Positions 20,022 to 25,461 of a stretch of DNA of 64,000 bases are shown piece by piece; the first letter of the stretch is position 1, and each line of letters begins with the position of its first letter. Both the position numbers and the translations under genes were made by a program. The stretch is from Candidatus Latescibacterota bacterium (GTDB lineage Bacteria; Latescibacterota; UBA2968; GCA-2709665), in NCBI GenBank assembly GCA_965237675.1, contig OZ250150.1, positions 2,080,001-2,144,000 of the forward strand, given 5' to 3'. The notes under the pieces are model-generated. The model did no database searches. It was given only the letters and a program-made list of their open reading frames with translations, and was not told the origin of the DNA.

Positions 20022-23018
20022 GTGAACGCCACATCGACCTTCCAGGAGCTCATTCTCCGCCTCGAACGATTCTGGGCGGATAACGGGTGTATCATCTGGC
20101 AGCCGCTCAGCGAAAAGGTGGGTGCCGGTACGCTGAACCCGGGCACCGCGCTTCGCGTGCTGGGACCGGAGCCCTGGAACGTGGCCTACGTTGAACCCAG
20201 CTTCCGTCCCGACGACGGCCGATTCGGCGAAAATCCGAACCGGATGCAAATGCACACGCAGTACCAGGTTGTTCTCAAACCCGAGCCTGGCAACCCCCAG
20301 GAGCTCTACCTGGACAGCCTGGAAGCGTTAGGTCTGAATCGCAGACAACACGACATCCGTTTTGTGGAAGACAACTGGGAATCCCCCGCGCTGGGCGCGT
20401 GGGGCCTGGGGTGGGAGGTCTGGCTCGATGGCCTGGAAATCACTCAGTTCACTTACTTCCAGCAGGCTGGTGGTCTACCGCTCGACCCTGTGCCGGTAGA
20501 AATCACTTACGGCATGGAACGTATTGCCATGTACGTTCAGGATGTGCGCGAAGTCTGGCAGCTTCGCTGGAATGAGAACGTCACCTACGGCGACATTCTC
20601 AGACAGCAGGAAGTGGAGTATTGCAATTACGAGTTCTACTACGCAAACGTCCAGCGCCTGCGGGCCATGTTCGATCTTTTCCTCGAGGAAGCCAGAGCCG
20701 CCATAGACCGTGGCCTCGTAATACCCGCCCATGACTATGTGTTGCGGTGCTCTCACACCTTCAACCTGCTGGACACCCGTGGGGCGGTCGGTGTTACCGA
20801 ACGTGCGAGGTACTTCGCACAAATACGCGATCTCGCCAGGCAGGTTGCCGAAGGTTTTGCCGGACAGCGCGAAGCATCCGGTCACCCCCTGATCAAGAAA
20901 ACCGCAGACGCGGCTGCTCCGAAACCGGTACGGGATTTTGAACCTTGCGAACACGCCGACCTTCTTGTGGAAATCGGCTCCGAAGAACTCCCGTCCCACG
21001 ACGTCCGGTCCGGCATCGAACAACTCGAGGGGCGCCTCCCCCAGCTTCTTCAGGAGCAGAGGCTTGAATATGACGGCGTCGAAATAACGGGGACCCCCAG
21101 ACGGCTTGTCGCGAGCGTCAGGAACCTCGCGGGCCGGCAGCCAGACCGGATGCGCGAAGTGCGCGGCCCGGCTGTCAGGGCCGCTTACGACGACGATGGA
21201 AAACCCACTCGCGCCCTTGAAGGATTCAGTCGCGGACAGGGCATCACTCCTGGTTCCGTGGAACACCGGAAAGACGACAAGGGCGTTGAATACGTTTACG
21301 CCCGGCGCCATGAACCCGGACTCGAAACACAGGAAATTCTGACGAAACTTCTTCCCGACCTGATTGCGGGCCTGAACTTCACTAAAACGATGCGCTGGGA
21401 CTCCGACGGTTTCGTCTATCCTCGACCTCTCCGATGGATTGTCGCACTCTTCGGAGACCAGATTGTCCCGTTTCCAATCGCCCGGATCCGGAGCGGGGAT
21501 ACCAGCCGGGGATCGAGGCCCGAGGGTGCTCCGCCAGTCCAGCTGAAATCCGCCAACGACTACCACCGGCAAATGGAGGAACACGGTCTGGTCGTCAACC
21601 GGGACCGGCGGAAGGACGCCATCTGGAATCAGGTTCTCGAACAGGCGCGGGCGGTGGGCGGTACCGTAAAGGAAGATCCGGACCTGCTCGACGAAGTTAC
21701 CGATCTGGTCGAAGCGCCCTTTGCGCTGCGCGGCGGGTTCGACGAAGCCCATCTTGAACTTCCGCAGGAGGTCCTGGTCACGGTACTCAAGAAATACCAG
21801 CGCTACTTCCCTATAGTACACCCGCAAACAGGCCGGCTGCTGCCCTATTTCGTGGCCGTATCCAACGGCCGGTCGGCCGATTCCGGCACGGTTATTCGAG
21901 GAAACGAGAGTGTCGTCCGCGCCCGGTTTACAGACGCCGCCTTCTTCTACAGGGAAGATGGCCGGAAGCCCCTGGAAGGCTACCTGCCGCGGTTGGATAC
22001 ACTCACCTACCAGGACGAACTGGGCTCCGTTAGGGACAAAAGCGAGCGAATCGAGCGACTGCTCACCGTCGTCGCCCGGGATCTGGGTCTGTCGGAAGGC
22101 GATACGAACACAGCGAAGAGGGCGGCCCGGCTCTGTAAAGCCGACCTGGCCACCGGTATGGTCGTCGAGATGACGTCCCTCCAGGGTGTGATGGGCCGTT
22201 ACTACGCCTTGTTGTCCAACGAAACGGACGCGGTGGCCGTTGCCATCCAGGAACACTATTTTCCCCGGTTTCCTGGCGACACCCTCCCAGCGAGTAATTC
22301 CGGTTTTGCGGTCTCGGTAGCCGACCGGCTGGACAGCCTGGCAGGCCTATTCTGCGTCGGAATCAAACCCCGGTCCACCGCCGATCCCTACGGGCTCCGC
22401 CGGGACGCGCTGGGTCTGTTGGCCCTGCTTATCGGGAAGGGCCGTCCGTTCTCCCTTAAGAAAGGCCTGGACGCCGCGGCAACGGGGCTACCTATCCGAA
22501 TCGATCCCAGTCGATTGAAGGACGCCTATGCGTTTATCCTGCGCCGCCTGGGTGTGCAACTGAAAGAAGAAGGTTTTCGTCACGACGTGGTTGAGGCCGC
22601 CCTTGCCGGCGGATGCGATGACCCCTTTCGGCTCCGGACCATTGTGGAAGGCCTTAATCATATGGTTGGTTCGGATAACTGGATGGAAACCCTCCATGCC
22701 TACGCGCGTTGCAATCGTATCGTCCGGGATCTGAGCGAGAGCCATTCAATGAATCCTGAGGCAGATCCAACCCCTGCCTCGCGGAGCCTACATCAGATGT
22801 GGGGTGAAGCCCGCCGCAGGATGGATCATTCGGAAGACAGAATCGATACCCTGGATAACGTGCTGGCCGACCTGTGCGGCCCGATTAACAGCTTTTTCGA
22901 AGACGTCCTGGTGATGGATGAAGATCCCGTGCTCCGCCGCGCCCGGCTGGCTCTCGTTCAGCGTATTGCCTCTCTTACGGACGGCATTGCGGACCTGAGC
23001 CGGCTTGAAGGGTTTTAG
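20022..23018 (+). CDS. glyQS: Glycine-tRNA ligase, fused alpha and beta subunits
   Basis: Alpha motifs ([46 protein letters not shown]) continue in frame into beta motifs ([40 protein letters not shown]). Confidence 0.95.
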
Positions 23019-23178: not shown

Positions 23179-23341
23179 TTAGGGCGGGAACACGCCTTGC
23201 ACACGCTCGGTTGAATTCCACCGGGTGTTCTTCCACCTCGCCCCGAACCCGGACGAGGCGGTCGTGTTGCGACATCCAGCCGCAAGGACGCCGGCGCCTA
23301 CCAACTCTATAGCTTCTTCACGCAGCTTCTTCACGGTTCCC

Positions 23342-23923
23342 ATGCGTATCATCACCGGGAAACTCAAAGGTCGGATCATTCCCTTTGATGTCAGGAAACA
23401 CGGCAACGCCCGCGTCACGCCGGAAAGGATCAAAGAGTCCGCGTTCACGATTCTGGGCGCCGGGCTGCCCCATCTTCACTTTCTCGACCTCTTTTCCTGT
23501 TCGGGCCAGATCGGCCTCGAGGCGTACAGCCGGGGTGCCCGGGTGCTTTTGAACGAACCGAATCGTCTCAGGCGCCGGTTTATTTCCAGGCTGCTGAAGG
23601 ACTGGGGCGTGGAAAAACACATCCGTCTTCTGGATCAGCCTGCTGAGAGCCTCCTGCCAACTCTCGAAACGGAACAACGGTTTTTTGACGTAATCTACGT
23701 GGATCCGCCGTACCGACGACAACTGGACGACGTTCCGTTCGCACTTGCCATACTCGCCCGCCTGAGCAGAACGAACCTCGTTGCTACGTCGGGCCATATC
23801 CTCATTCAACATTCCGCCGACCTGGAGTTGCCTGCCGCCATCCGGCGCCTTTCGTTGTGCAGGCGAAAGACCTATGGCGGCACCTCATTATCCATCTACC
23901 GGAAGGTGGGCCGAGGCGAGTAA
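23342..23923 (+). CDS. rsmD: 16S rRNA (guanine966-N2)-methyltransferase RsmD-like
   Basis: MRIITGKLKGR, RIKESAF, LDLFSCSGQIGLEAYSRGA, DVIYVDPPY, KTYGGTSLSIY. Confidence 0.88.
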   Translation: MRIITGKLKGRIIPFDVRKHGNARVTPERIKESAFTILGAGLPHLHFLDLFSCSGQIGLEAYSRGARVLLNEPNRLRRRFISRLLKDWGVEKHIRLLDQPAESLLPTLETEQRFFDVIYVDPPYRRQLDDVPFALAILARLSRTNLVATSGHILIQHSADLELPAAIRRLSLCRRKTYGGTSLSIYRKVGRGE

Positions 23924-24009
23924 GCCCCTGACAGCAATATCCATTTGCTTTCGTACGCTGTTACGTGTATTTTTTCCATTCAACCCCTATTCGGAAAGGA
24001 GCCGATCAG

Positions 24010-24288
24010 ATGGATACCATGCACGCGTCCATCGAATTCCGTCCCCGCGGGCGAACGCTTGCCATGGGCGGGATCCCCTGGCTGCCGAGGATTACGGACA
24101 AAGCGCGGGCTATGCTGCGGAACAACATCGGCGACTATATCTACCCGTGACCCGCCGACCAGAAGTTCCTGGAGGAACTCGGCATGCCGGCAGAAGAATT
24201 CACGCAAATTGTGTCCGAATGCAACCTGGACGCTGAAGTCATCGAGCGTGTCCGACCCTATTACGAAAAGTCCCGAAAGGGAGAATGA
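24010..24288 (+). CDS. DUF5069-like small protein, probable selenoprotein (in-frame TGA at 24148-24150, codon 47 of 92)
   Basis: RBS AAGGAG; MDTMHASIEFRPRGRTLAMGGIPWLPRITDKARAMLRNNIGDYIYP-TGA-PADQKFLEELGMPAEEFTQIVSECNLDAEVIERVRPYYEKSRKGE*. Both sides of the TGA fit the recalled DUF5069 pattern (L.R..DKARA...GEY.Y.CP.D..FL..LG....F). Confidence 0.75.
24154..24183 (+). promoter_or_regulatory. Candidate bacterial SECIS element
   Basis: GCCG (24154-57)/CGGC (24180-83) lower stem, bulge, AGTTCC (24164-69)/GGAACT (24174-79) upper stem, loop TGGA starting 20 nt after the TGA with G at loop position 2. Confidence 0.6.
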
Positions 24289-24296
24289 AAATACAG

Positions 24297-24324
24297 AAGC
24301 CGCCACGCGTTGCGTGGCGGCTTT
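24297..24324 (+). terminator. Intrinsic terminator after the DUF5069-like gene
   Basis: AAGCCGCCACGC-GTT-GCGTGGCGGCTT perfect 12-bp stem then T, 8 nt after the read-through stop. Confidence 0.75.
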
Positions 24325-24525
24325 GCTCGTTTATCACCTCAGGTTGTTTTCATCTCCCACCATACGATTCACGTCCCATCAAATTCGGCCTCCCGCCAGC
24401 CTCCCTTCAGGTCCAGTCAAACAGAACCAGGGATTCGATCTCCTCTGTATCAGACGACAAACATCGCATTTCATCCGCGCGGTCCTTCATCTGGCCGCTC
24501 GCAAAGATCCACCTGCCGTCTGGTC

Positions 24526-25461
24526 CTACCGTTCCCCGCCCTCCGGCAGGGCTTGGCGGGCCAGCGCCCGGACCTCGCCGGACCCCATCCGAAGCAACCC
24601 GTCGATCCCTATCACGTCGGCCGCAAAGAGCTGCGGACATTCCTGGGCAGCCAGATCGTATGCTTCCTGCACATTGTAATTCACACCCCTGTAGCGGTAG
24701 AGGTGGCCCAGGCTCTCCAATTGTCCGTTTCGTCTCAATGAATTCGTTACACCCATCTTGAAATAATACAACTGCCGGTCTCTCTTGTCCCCCCACGTCA
24801 ATGTATCCGGCTCGGGAACATGCGCCATCGACCTGTCCAGTTCTGCCTGAAAGGCTTCGATCTGGCCATCGACCATCTCCAGCAGCCCTCGAAGGACCTC
24901 ACTGCGGGCGGCTTCGGATTCGTCTTGAAGCATATCCTGGAGCGCCAGAGCGGCCTTGCCGTAAAATGCGTAACGATCTCGTCTTCCCTCTCCGAACAGG
25001 TCCATTTCAATGGCTTCGGCTCTCCGGGCCAGTGCCTCCAGATCCAGGTGGTCATCACCCACACCCGCGTAGTCGTCATCCGCGCGTGCGACCTGTAGTC
25101 CCACCAGCAACGCCCGCTCGACAAGATGCATCATGTCATCCGCAGGATCATAAACCCTCAAATTCCGTGACTTTCCTGCATCGGTTCGTTTCACATCCAC
25201 GCCGTGCGCAAACCCCCGTCTGACCAGTTCCTGCTCCGCCTCTATACCCAACCTTGACAATAGTTCGTGTAGTACCCCGCCCAGTATCGGGTGGCTTCCG
25301 GCCGGCAGGTATTCCTCCCGGTCTTCGATCACCATATCCGCCACCTCCGCCGCCAACGCTTCGTCTCCCTCGGAATTTCCGTTGCTTTTGAAACCCCTTC
25401 CACGCCTCAGACCGAAAGCAACCACGAGGACCAAAAGGACAACCAGAACGGTAGTAACCAT
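24526..25461 (-). CDS. Hypothetical membrane-anchored, acidic helical protein
   Basis: 311 aa ORF with N-terminal TM helix, RBS GAGGGAG, 36 nt downstream of the ABC permease; no family recognised. Confidence 0.7.
   Translation of the reverse strand: MVTTVLVVLLVLVVAFGLRRGRGFKSNGNSEGDEALAAEVADMVIEDREEYLPAGSHPILGGVLHELLSRLGIEAEQELVRRGFAHGVDVKRTDAGKSRNLRVYDPADDMMHLVERALLVGLQVARADDDYAGVGDDHLDLEALARRAEAIEMDLFGEGRRDRYAFYGKAALALQDMLQDESEAARSEVLRGLLEMVDGQIEAFQAELDRSMAHVPEPDTLTWGDKRDRQLYYFKMGVTNSLRRNGQLESLGHLYRYRGVNYNVQEAYDLAAQECPQLFAADVIGIDGLLRMGSGEVRALARQALPEGGER

What the first reader, a model, noticed from the sequence alone, without database searches (positions are those of the whole stretch)
24010..24324. 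Hidden selenoprotein candidate: DUF5069-like protein with UGA at the conserved Cys, plus SECIS-like hairpin
Seen: the ORF track stops at TGA 24148-24150, but the frame stays open for 45 more codons (GDYIYP-U-PADQKFLEELGMPAEEF...). A strong terminator lies 8 nt after the second stop, not the first. A bulged hairpin with a TGGA loop begins its loop 20 nt after the UGA. Established: bacterial SECIS elements lie just 3' of the UGA with a G early in the apical loop. Recalled, not searched: DUF5069 proteins carry Y.Y.CP.D..FL at this position. Inference: this is a Sec-containing 92-aa member, implying a reactive thiol/selenol role for a family of unknown function. I do not know it as a classical selenoprotein family, but I cannot check whether it has been reported.
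Basis: partly seen in the sequence, partly recalled or inferred. Interest (0 to 1): 0.88.

Follow-up and report, generated by a model that had tools for sequence, protein, structure and literature searches.

The report
Uncatalogued selenoprotein in DUF5069 family
A small gene that standard annotation cuts short at a UGA codon almost certainly encodes a 92-residue selenocysteine protein of the unknown-function family DUF5069, which points to a reactive cysteine/selenocysteine site in that family.

Summary
ATG 24010 opens a frame with TGA at 24148-24150 that runs 45 more codons to TGA 24286-24288, followed by a terminator. The read-through 92-aa protein hits Pfam DUF5069 (51.1 bits against a cut-off of 27). 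The UGA aligns to the Cys of GDYIYP-C-PAD in full-length homologues and in PDB 3omd.

The same in-frame TGA occurs in 50 of 61 related genomes and 59 of 80 loci from named MAGs, mostly Latescibacterota with some labelled Poribacteria. The other 21 loci have TGC or TGT. Downstream codons are under purifying selection (dN/dS 0.185).

A hairpin AGUUCC-UGGA-GGAACU lies 19 nt after the UGA. It is present in 59 of 59 TGA forms, in no Cys form, and shows a G-C/C-G swap. It meets the published bacterial SECIS criteria.

The genome has selA, selB, tRNA-Sec and a Sec-containing selD. DUF5069 is absent from the 2026 catalogue of 119 prokaryotic selenoprotein families.

The biochemical function is inferred only. 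Most likely it is a single-selenol redox site on a non-thioredoxin fold.

The parts
23996..24001 (+). Shine-Dalgarno-like AAGGAG, 8 nt before the start codon
   Evidence: Read directly from the sequence. Orthologues start at the same Met (MD...).
24010..24288 (+). Full coding sequence of the 92-aa DUF5069-family selenoprotein, including the final stop TGA 24286-24288
   Evidence: Translation with TGA=U. Pfam PF16798 at 51.1 bits, E 2e-13. In the 30 fetched loci of relatives, the 28 TGA forms carry the TGA at codon 47 and all 30 end in a true stop at codon 91-95. dN/dS is 0.089 upstream and 0.185 downstream of the TGA.
24148..24150 (+). Sec codon UGA (codon 47), at the family's Cys position in GDYIYP-C-PAD
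   Evidence: Aligned to Cys in homologues and in 3omd. The codon is TGA in 59, TGC in 15 and TGT in 6 of 80 loci. It is unchanged in contigs of 4 runs.
24164..24179 (+). Core SECIS hairpin: 6-bp stem AGUUCC/GGAACU with apical loop UGGA (24170-24173), 19 nt after the UGA. It lies inside codons K-F-L-E-E-L.
   Evidence: RNAalifold consensus over 56 distinct sequences. Pair counts show GC:44 and CG:12 at one pair with none broken. Present in 59 of 59 TGA forms and 0 of 21 Cys forms. Meets the bSECIS criteria quoted.
24154..24183 (+). Extended stem-loop in this genome: a lower stem GCCGA/UCGGC around the core hairpin. The lower stem is not conserved outside close relatives.
   Evidence: MFE structure of -12.3 kcal/mol. 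In alignment A2 the lower-stem columns vary without keeping pairs (by eye).
24296..24324 (+). Intrinsic terminator-like hairpin after the true stop
   Evidence: Terminator scan: 13 pairs, 9 G-C, T-rich tail.
23336..23923 (+). Upstream gene of the RsmD-type methyltransferase family PF03602, probably co-transcribed. The neighbour is conserved across most Latescibacterota loci.
   Evidence: Pfam at 112.6 bits. Found upstream in 39 of the 45 loci L056-L100 by tblastn (adjacent in 38, about 2.6 kb away in L082), and in none of L101-L135. No sigma-70-like promoter was found in 23600-24700.

Best explanation
This is a genuine selenoprotein gene. The mRNA encodes a 92-residue single-domain DUF5069 protein whose codon 47 (UGA) is decoded as selenocysteine.

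Decoding mechanism (inferred from established bacterial Sec decoding). When the ribosome reaches the UGA, SelB carrying Sec-tRNA(Sec) binds the hairpin AGUUCC-UGGA-GGAACU 19 nt downstream, inside the coding region, and inserts Sec. Translation then continues to the real stop at 24286-24288. Because the hairpin lies in codons K/R-F-L-E-E-L/V, it also fixes the peptide FLEE and its synonymous sites in all Sec forms.

Protein. The model has a beta-hairpin plus four helices, which is the 3omd fold and not a thioredoxin fold. Sec47 sits at the N-terminal cap of helix 2 after the invariant G-x-Y-x-Y-P loop.

Function (inferred, about 50%). The protein is a single-selenol (1-Cys-type) redox protein. 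Its selenol attacks an oxidised substrate or partner and is regenerated by an external thiol or flavoprotein system. No resolving Cys is conserved.

Evolution. Sec plus SECIS looks ancestral to this short subfamily, with repeated Sec-to-Cys replacements followed by decay of the hairpin.

Confidence. The 0.92 below is for 'real Sec-decoded gene with a coding-region SECIS'. The redox function is far less certain.
For: Shown by tool results:

1. The read-through product is a DUF5069 member. It models confidently (pLDDT 87.9) onto the only related solved structure, 3omd (TM 0.77).
2. The UGA aligns with Cys in 39 full-length database homologues. Four database gene calls stop exactly at ...YP, as do 11 representatives in the 1.8-billion-protein library.
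3. One in-frame TGA lies inside the orthologue in 50 of 61 related genomes spanning four family-level groups. In the 30 fetched loci it is at codon 47 in 28 and is TGC in 2. In 80 loci from named MAGs it is TGA in 59 and TGC or TGT in 21. These sets overlap in genomes.
4. The sequence downstream of the UGA evolves as protein. dN/dS is 0.185. Entropy is 1.21 at third codon positions against 0.40 at second positions. The true stop is always at codon 91-95, with mixed stop codons.
5. The hairpin tracks the UGA. The loop is UGGA in 59 of 59 TGA forms, and all six pairs form in 56 of 59 (five pairs in the other 3). No Cys form has both features, and mean hairpin energy is -5.8 against +1.8 kcal/mol. 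One pair is G-C in 44 and C-G in 12 distinct sequences with none broken. Shuffles reach the observed value in 0 of 500, and slid registers pair in 60% of cells or fewer against 92%. The two Cys forms nested in the TGA clade each carry a different synonymous change inside the hairpin.
6. The hairpin meets every criterion of the bacterial SECIS model as quoted in the review's Fig. 2 legend. The loop is 4 nt (3-9 allowed), the upper stem 6 bp (4-16), G is at loop position 2 followed by G, spacing is 19 nt (16-37), and MFE is -12.3 (<= -7.5).
7. The genome has selA (561 bits), selB (358 bits) and tRNA-Sec (73 bits) clustered together, and selD with its own in-frame TGA. That selD UGA is followed by a similar hairpin, AGUCC-GGUC-GGACU, 17 nt downstream.
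8. selA is found in 49 of the 50 TGA-bearing genomes. The miss is 80% complete.
9. The TGA is unchanged in contigs of 4 runs from 3 studies.

For the redox reading, all inference:

- Sec/Cys pairs in the known families are mostly redox sites (review text).
- Sec47 precedes helix 48-57.
- In two loci labelled Poribacteria (L120, whose neighbour was scanned; L122 by ORF size only) a glutaredoxin-thioredoxin reductase fusion lies directly upstream.
- In loci L115, L128 and L130, whose neighbours were scanned, an FNR-type NAD-binding reductase follows within 5-24 nt. L132 and L135 have a same-size ORF at the same spacing that was not scanned.
Against: - No direct evidence of selenium incorporation exists. 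No RNA or proteome data could be laid.
- The hairpin's stability in this single sequence is not exceptional against shuffles (z 0.05 and -0.70).
- The hairpin's conservation is confounded with conservation of the peptide FLEE, and the compared genomes are relatives. The 59-versus-21 contrast and the 12 compensatory cells may therefore reflect few independent events.
- Against the redox function:
  - There is no CxxU or UxxC motif.
  - The second Cys (C71) is not conserved among Sec forms.
  - The fold matches no known oxidoreductase.
  - 59 of 172 DUF5069 domain stretches lack Cys at this column; 11 of those are gene calls cut at the TGA. Two of the three repeats of this genome's own 431-aa paralogue also lack it.
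  - Gene neighbours vary between clades: rsmD-type methyltransferase, pheA, GT2, FNR-like, and an unknown 340-aa ORF.
Confidence: 0.92

Rival explanations
1. The UGA is an ordinary stop. The gene is a truncated 46-residue product or a pseudogene, and the downstream frame is a decaying remnant of a Cys-type ancestor.
For: Table 11 gene calling ends at 24150. Public gene callers made the same truncated calls (P0033, P0036, P0040, P0043, unnamed or 'hypothetical protein').
Against: The TGA and the open downstream frame persist in 50 of 61 genomes at down to 43% protein identity. Downstream dN/dS is 0.185, with third-position variation three times that of second positions. The stop is always at codon 91-95. 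The terminator follows the second stop, not the first. A remnant would accumulate frameshifts and stops, and none was seen in the 28 TGA forms among the 30 loci examined.
Confidence: 0.02
2. The UGA is read through, but not as selenocysteine. This would be hairpin-stimulated near-cognate read-through (Trp, Cys or Arg) or a local recoding unrelated to SelB.
For: Comparative data alone cannot tell which residue is inserted. Downstream structures can stimulate stop-codon read-through in general (established knowledge).
Against: The position is Cys in every non-TGA orthologue (21 of 21), which is the classical Sec/Cys signature. The hairpin fits the SelB-type bSECIS model in loop, G position and spacing. 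It resembles the selD SECIS of the same genome. The full Sec machinery is present. The one close relative group where selA was not found (g14: G055, G059) has no TGA form; G059's orthologue has no in-frame stop. UGA also serves as this gene's own terminator, so there is no code reassignment.
Confidence: 0.04
3. Two separate small genes: a 46-residue N-terminal peptide and a C-terminal peptide restarting at ATG 24184 (the 34-aa ORF), acting as a split DUF5069.
For: An ATG-initiated 34-aa ORF exists at 24184-24288 in the same frame.
Against: Met58 is not conserved. It is M in only 3 of 30 orthologues and L, I or V elsewhere. Residues 48-57 (PADQKFLEEL), between the UGA and that ATG, are among the best conserved and align to the Cys-type proteins. 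No ribosome-binding site precedes the ATG; the region there is the hairpin.
Confidence: 0.01
4. A functional rival that still accepts Sec insertion: residue 47 is a metal or metalloid ligand, or a selenium/sulfur carrier site, rather than a catalytic redox nucleophile.
For: The catalogue of known families includes several metal-binding selenoproteins. There is a single Sec without a partner Cys. Conserved Tyr, Asp and Arg residues surround it.
Against: No second conserved soft ligand (Cys or His) is present in the 92-aa domain, so a mononuclear site would need oligomerisation. There are no metal-transport or resistance genes next to it in any clade examined.
Confidence: 0.15

Closest known systems
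Pfam DUF5069 (PF16798) and its only solved member, PDB 3omd (uncharacterised protein of Leptospirillum rubarum)
   Same: Sequence membership is above the curated cut-off. It has the same fold (TM 0.77, rmsd 1.6 over 78 columns). It has the same motif, with Cys in 3omd (EYTYNCPLDQ) where this protein has Sec.
   Different: This protein is a short form, 92 aa covering profile positions 4-74 of 133. It carries Sec instead of Cys and has a SECIS in its coding region. No function is known for the family, so membership gives no mechanism.
Computationally defined bacterial selenoprotein families with Sec/Cys pairs in domains of unknown function (for example the DUF523, DUF1858, DUF166 and DUF3179 selenoproteins listed in Table 1 of PMC13188914)
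   Same: The evidence is of the same kind: an in-frame UGA aligned to Cys, Cys-homologues elsewhere, TGA-homologues in other Sec-using organisms, and a bSECIS that fits the consensus model.
   Different: It is a different protein family. PF16798 is not among the 119 families or subfamilies of that table. The protein hits no NCBIfam model, including the NF04xxxx selenoprotein models. The motif is YP-U-P/G-A-D rather than CxxU or UxxC.
Bacterial SECIS elements, meaning the SelB-binding stem-loop just 3' of the UGA as described by the consensus model quoted in PMC13188914, and the selD SECIS of this same genome
   Same: It lies in the coding region, has a small apical loop with GG, a 5-6-bp upper stem closed by C-G, and spacing of 17-19 nt.
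   Different: The loop sequence is UGGA rather than the GGUC of this genome's selD. The conserved part is only the 16-nt core, and the lower stem is lineage-specific. SelB binding was not tested.

Membership tests
Bacterial selenoprotein gene (Sec-decoded UGA) | In-frame UGA aligned to Cys in homologues | tested here: met
   Cys in the 39 full-length homologues of alignment A1. TGC or TGT in 21 of 80 loci against TGA in 59. Cys in 3omd.
Bacterial selenoprotein gene (Sec-decoded UGA) | Protein-level conservation continues in frame past the UGA to a later stop | tested here: met
   Downstream dN/dS is 0.185. Entropy is 1.21 at codon position 3 against 0.40 at position 2. The stop is at codon 91-95 in 30 of 30 loci.
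Bacterial selenoprotein gene (Sec-decoded UGA) | The UGA recurs in orthologues of other Sec-using organisms | tested here: met
   50 of 61 related genomes. 49 of those 50 have selA over the cut-off.
Bacterial selenoprotein gene (Sec-decoded UGA) | bSECIS stem-loop: 3-9-nt loop, 4-16-bp upper stem, G in the first two loop positions, 16-37 nt from the UGA, MFE <= -7.5 kcal/mol (criteria as quoted in PMC13188914 Fig. 2 legend) | tested here: met
   4-nt loop UGGA, 6 bp, G at loop position 2, 19 nt spacing, MFE -12.3 kcal/mol. bSECISearch itself was not available.
Bacterial selenoprotein gene (Sec-decoded UGA) | selA, selB, selC (tRNA-Sec) and selD in the genome | tested here: met
   561, 358, 73 and 363 bits, all over their curated cut-offs.
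Bacterial selenoprotein gene (Sec-decoded UGA) | Selenium actually incorporated at the position (75Se labelling or MS) | not testable with these tools
   No proteomic data were available, and no RNA holder was listed.
DUF5069 (PF16798) | Score over Pfam's gathering threshold | tested here: met
   51.1 bits against 27, E 2e-13. Only profile positions 4-74 of 133 are covered, so this is a short form.
DUF5069 (PF16798) | Fold of the family's solved member 3omd | tested here: met
   AF2 model at pLDDT 87.9. Foldseek hit to 3omd_A at E 1.9e-4, TMq 0.77. No other match has E < 1.
Thioredoxin-fold / CxxC-type thiol-disulfide oxidoreductases (the commonest kind of selenoprotein) | Thioredoxin fold and a CxxU, UxxC or TxxU motif | tested here: not met
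   The motif is YP-U-PAD, and the nearest Cys is at residue 71 and is not conserved. The fold is helical and matches no Trx-fold chain. It may work as a redox protein, but it is not a member of this group.
Any of the catalogued prokaryotic selenoprotein families | Match to a listed family's domain model | tested here: not met
   No NCBIfam hit at E <= 1. The only Pfam hit is PF16798, which is not in Table 1 of PMC13188914. Entries defined by cd or PTHR identifiers could not be scanned.

The most novel reading that the evidence does not exclude
The short DUF5069 proteins form a selenoprotein family that is not catalogued in the accessible literature and is systematically mis-annotated (truncated). 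Sec appears to be the ancestral and still dominant state across Latescibacterota, and it occurs in MAGs labelled Poribacteria, Gemmatimonadota and Planctomycetota. The family would use a single selenol at a helix N-cap on a non-thioredoxin fold. That would give DUF5069, which has had a crystal structure (3omd, released 2010) but no function, its first mechanistic handle. It would also add a 16-nt minimal coding-region SECIS (UUCC-UGGA-GGAA) that dictates the peptide FLEE.
Probability: 0.65. Interest if true: 0.65.

Novelty: new member of a known kind. Interest (0 to 1): 0.6.

Why it matters
- A Sec/Cys pair is one of the few purely genomic signals that pinpoints a chemically reactive residue. 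Here it marks Cys/Sec47 in YP-C/U-P as the working residue of the Cys-type DUF5069 domains, a family with a solved structure and no known function.
- It adds a family to the prokaryotic selenoproteome, for which 119 families or subfamilies were catalogued in 2026. It also shows that a candidate phylum known only from MAGs keeps it as Sec almost throughout.
- It exposes a systematic annotation error. The gene is called as a 45-90-residue fragment ending at ...YP in several public sources. Homology-based resources built on known families would miss it.
- The very small, strictly conserved SECIS core, with its natural Sec-to-Cys revertants, offers a clean system for studying SelB recognition in an uncultured lineage.

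Tried and rejected
- Single-sequence thermodynamics as evidence for the SECIS was rejected. The z-scores of 0.05 and -0.70 are not exceptional.
- A conserved lower stem was considered. The GCCG/CGGC pairing seen in this genome is not kept in more distant TGA forms (alignment A2). Only the 6-bp core is claimed. A seventh pair (columns 16-33) is unpaired in 28 of 56 sequences.
- Rfam scan of 23900-24400 gave only a chance-level sRNA match (13 bits against a gathering score of 45) and no SECIS family.
- Cys71 as a resolving cysteine was considered. It is present in this genus but absent in several Sec-form clades (VSSSDLD, VASSPTD), so a Sec-Cys selenenylsulfide cycle within the monomer is not general.
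- Gene context as a guide to function was inconclusive.
  - Latescibacterota loci have the rsmD-type neighbour, which is housekeeping.
  - Poribacteria-labelled loci have pheA downstream, plus a Grx-TrxR fusion upstream in L120 (scanned) and probably L122 (same ORF size, not scanned).
  - Another clade has an unknown 336-351-aa ORF upstream, with no Pfam or NCBIfam hit, and GT2 or an FNR-like reductase downstream.
  - Source.
The natural Cys homologue P0003 gave no usable hit.
- Expression: no RNA holder was listed. Only DNA-type contigs could be laid.
- The Sec/Cys tree has 89 columns, used the quick method, and kept the SECIS-encoded columns. It needs 7 changes on the free tree but only 2 are forced by well-supported branches. 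It is too weak to fix the number or direction of conversions. 'Sec ancestral' rests on the shared hairpin, not on the tree.
- Literature:
  - 'DUF5069' and 'PF16798' are each in 0 papers of the searchable library.
  - 'selenoprotein' plus 'Latescibacter' is in 3 papers; the 2 listed look unrelated by title and abstract start, and the third was not shown.
  - Supplementary tables were closed, including Table S2 of BSepDB and Table S2 of deep-Sep, and they could list this family.
Full report
**1. The observation**

The plus strand has AAGGAG at 23996-24001 and ATG at 24010. TGA at 24148-24150 is codon 47. The frame then stays open for 45 more codons to TGA 24286-24288. Under table 11 the ORF list ends at 24150.

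A terminator-like hairpin with 13 pairs, 9 of them G-C, and a T-rich tail lies at 24296-24324, starting 8 nt after the second stop. A hairpin AGUUCC-UGGA-GGAACU occupies 24164-24179, with 19 nt between the UGA and the loop.

Taken alone, the hairpin is not statistically remarkable. Its z-score against dinucleotide shuffles is 0.05 for 63 nt and -0.70 for 43 nt. Its weight comes from the comparisons below.

The TGA is not an assembly slip. Contigs of four public runs from three studies cover 24148-24150 without a difference; one of these may be the window's own source. The nearest variant is a synonymous G>C at 24147.

**2. What the read-through protein is**

Read with Sec at codon 47, the 92-aa product matches Pfam DUF5069 (PF16798) at 51.1 bits against a cut-off of 27, over residues 12-82 and profile positions 4-74 of 133. 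It matches no NCBIfam model.

A search of 5.8 billion proteins returned 43 relatives. Thirty-nine are full-length proteins, mostly of about 90 aa, with GDYIYP-C-PAD. Four are fragments that end exactly at ...YP, which means other gene callers stopped at the same TGA. Their sources name them 'hypothetical protein' or give no name.

The only related solved structure is 3omd, an uncharacterised Leptospirillum protein. It has Cys at the aligned position (EYTYNCPLDQ).

An AlphaFold model built on the alignment is confident (pLDDT 87.9). It shows a beta-hairpin and four helices, with residue 47 immediately before helix 48-57. In the PDB it resembles only 3omd (E 1.9e-4, TM 0.77), and everything else has E > 1. 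The fold is therefore not thioredoxin-like.

**3. Comparative test of the UGA**

Sixty relatives plus the window's own genome were searched.
- In 50 of these 61 genomes the orthologue contains exactly one in-frame TGA. They span four family-level groups and go down to 43% identity.
- Three orthologues have no in-frame stop (G022, G034, G059).
- The remaining genomes gave only paralogue-level or fragment matches.

In the 30 loci fetched, the TGA is at codon 47 in 28 and the codon is TGC in 2. All 30 end in a true stop at codon 91-95, with a mix of TAA, TAG and TGA.

A scan of one genome per GTDB species returned 80 loci. This set overlaps the first in genomes. The record titles are mostly 'Candidatus Latescibacterota'. 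Some are labelled Gemmatimonadota, several Poribacteria, one Handelsmanbacteria and one Planctomycetota. The aligned codon is TGA in 59, TGC in 15 and TGT in 6.

Downstream of the UGA the sequence evolves as a protein.
- Median dN/dS is 0.185, against 0.089 upstream.
- Entropy is 1.21 at third codon positions against 0.40 at second positions.
- The other two frames contain stops in 16 and 26 of 30 sequences.

Met58, the only possible internal restart, is M in 3 of 30 orthologues. This rules out the pseudogene, plain-stop and split-gene readings.

**4. The SECIS**

I aligned 56 distinct TGA forms over the UGA and the following 51 nt. RNAalifold finds one consensus helix: columns 17-22 paired with columns 27-32, and loop UGGA.

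The pair counts are as follows.

| Measure | Result |
|---|---|
| Pair 18-31 | G-C in 44, C-G in 12, never broken |
| Pair 17-32 | A-U 37, G-U 14, G-C 3, unpaired 2 |
| Cells paired | 92% |
| Cells paired in registers slid by 1-3 nt | 60% or fewer |
| Shuffles reaching the observed value | 0 of 500 |

The shuffle control does not correct for relatedness. The compensatory cells probably trace to one or a few events.

The contrast with the Cys forms is sharper.
- All 59 TGA forms have the UGGA loop. Fifty-six have all six pairs and three have five.
- Of the 21 Cys forms, one has six pairs (with loop UACA) and four have the UGGA loop with a defective stem. None has both.
- Mean hairpin energy is -5.8 against +1.8 kcal/mol.

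Synonymous sites of F-L-E-E are frozen in the Sec forms. Cys forms that encode the same residues use other codons, for example TTC CTC GAG GAG in L103. The two Cys forms nested in the TGA clade each carry a different synonymous change inside the hairpin. That pattern fits constraint being released once the UGA is gone.

The hairpin meets all criteria of the bacterial SECIS model as quoted in the 2026 review: loop length, stem length, G in the first two loop positions, 16-37 nt spacing, and MFE <= -7.5 (section read; for the -12.3 kcal/mol). The same genome's selD has a comparable element after its own UGA: AGUCC-GGUC-GGACU, 17 nt downstream.

**5. Machinery**

The genome is 5.6 Mb in 3 contigs and 99.9% complete. 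It has selA (561 bits), selB (358 bits) and tRNA-Sec (73 bits) side by side at C1:4984023-4987542. It also has selD (363 bits) with one in-frame TGA.

selA is over its cut-off in 57 of the 61 genomes, and in 49 of the 50 with the TGA form. The miss, G018, is 80% complete. The two genomes of genus g14 lack a selA match. One of them has no orthologue and the other has an orthologue without an in-frame stop. Two genomes, G022 and G034, have both selA and the Cys form.

**6. How it most likely works**

The decoding step is inferred from established bacterial Sec decoding. SelB carrying GTP and Sec-tRNA(Sec) docks on the UGGA hairpin while the ribosome sits on the UGA, and it inserts Sec47. Translation then ends at 24286-24288. 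The evidence above supports every genomic prerequisite. Selenium incorporation itself is not shown.

The protein function is inferred. A Sec/Cys pair at a helix N-cap, after the invariant G-x-Y-x-Y-P loop, points to a nucleophilic selenol or thiol. No second Cys is conserved: C71 is absent in several Sec clades. I therefore favour a 1-Cys-type redox cycle with an external reductant, at about 50%.

Weak contextual support comes from flavoprotein reductases next to the gene in two unrelated clades. A Grx-TrxR fusion lies upstream in L120; L122 has a same-size ORF there that was not scanned. An FNR-type reductase lies directly downstream in L115, L128 and L130; L132 and L135 have a same-size ORF at the same spacing, also not scanned. 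A metal or chalcogen-carrier role is the main functional rival, at about 15%.

The Cys is not universal in DUF5069. I examined 172 domain stretches from 151 proteins: the query, the 150 best representatives of a 1.8-billion-protein search.
- 113 have Cys.
- 27 have Ser, in a GxxSG context.
- 11 are calls truncated at ...Y[IV]YP.

This genome's 431-aa paralogue has three repeats, and only the middle one has Cys. Any mechanism therefore applies to the Cys-type domains only.

**7. Evolution**

A tree of the 80 orthologues has 89 columns, used the quick method, and kept the SECIS-encoded columns. It needs 7 Sec/Cys changes on the free tree, but only 2 are forced by well-supported branches.

All Sec groups share the same hairpin core. 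Sec with its SECIS is therefore more plausibly ancestral to this short subfamily, with repeated one-nucleotide Sec-to-Cys replacements. This is inference.

**8. Comparison with what is known, and novelty**

As a kind of thing, this is a standard bacterial selenoprotein gene with a coding-region SECIS. As a family, it appears uncatalogued.
- Table 1 of the 2026 review lists 119 prokaryotic selenoprotein families and subfamilies with their domain identifiers. I read it in full, and neither DUF5069 nor PF16798 is there.
- Both terms occur in 0 papers of the searchable library.
- The deep-Sep paper (passages seen) and the BSepDB paper (passages seen) do not mention the family in their main text. 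BSepDB holds 111 families and is built by homology to known ones.
- Their supplementary tables could not be opened and might bear on this.

The protein hits none of NCBI's selenoprotein family models, and public gene calls truncate it. I therefore rate it a new member of a known kind.

**9. Verdict**

| Claim | Assessment |
|---|---|
| Observation | Confirmed |
| Real Sec-decoded gene with a SECIS | Confidence about 0.92 |
| Selenoprotein family is new to the literature | Confidence about 0.65 |
| Redox function | About 0.5, untested |
| Interest | 0.6 |

This is a solid and widely conserved addition to the bacterial selenoproteome. It gives DUF5069 its first mechanistic clue. It is not a new kind of mechanism.

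Noticed in passing
G000:C1:309559-310482 (locus L014; outside the window): selD of this genome is itself a selenoprotein (...LARTCG-U-AAKV...). Its UGA is followed 17 nt later by the hairpin AGUCC-GGUC-GGACU.
   Followed up: partly
G000:C1:4984023-4987542 (loci L001, L007, L018; outside the window): selA, selB and tRNA-Sec lie side by side on the minus strand as one cluster.
   Followed up: no
L136:975-2270 (-) = about G000:C1:1076274-1077569: A 431-aa paralogue is made of three DUF5069 repeats. Only the middle repeat has the Cys motif (YIYNCPID); the outer two have Y-G-[DE]-D-S-G-L-D instead. Relatives have similar proteins with two or three repeats of 290-480 aa.
   Followed up: partly
window 20022-23018 (+): Glycyl-tRNA synthetase alpha and beta subunits are fused in one 998-aa ORF, directly upstream of the RsmD-type methyltransferase and the selenoprotein gene.
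   Followed up: no
window 24526-25461 (-): A 311-aa ORF converges on the same terminator. It has no Pfam hit and only a chance-level NCBIfam hit. It is conserved next to the gene at 75-81% identity in the 12 closest loci (L056-L067) and at about 53% in L070 and L071.
   Followed up: no
L109, L112, L115, L117, L119 (Cys forms) and L121, L125-L130, L135 (Sec forms), about 1000 nt upstream of the DUF5069 gene: A 336-351-aa ORF ends within about 10-40 nt of the DUF5069 start in both Cys and Sec forms of one clade. The members that were scanned have no Pfam hit, and the three also scanned against NCBIfam have no hit there either. It is a conserved gene pair of unknown meaning.
   Followed up: partly
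window 24161-24181 and the same columns of alignment A2: The SECIS fixes the peptide. Of 59 Sec forms, 57 read F-L-E-E. The 21 Cys forms vary: 4 read FLEE and the others FLQK, FLRE, WLQK, FLER, FLDE, FLAE and so on. This is an RNA element dictating protein sequence.
   Followed up: partly
window 24127-24178: In two runs, short contigs of other organisms match only this 52-nt stretch, which holds the Y-x-Y-P codons, the TGA and the hairpin, with 4 differences. This shows how conserved the core is at nucleotide level (records 2 and 6).
   Followed up: no
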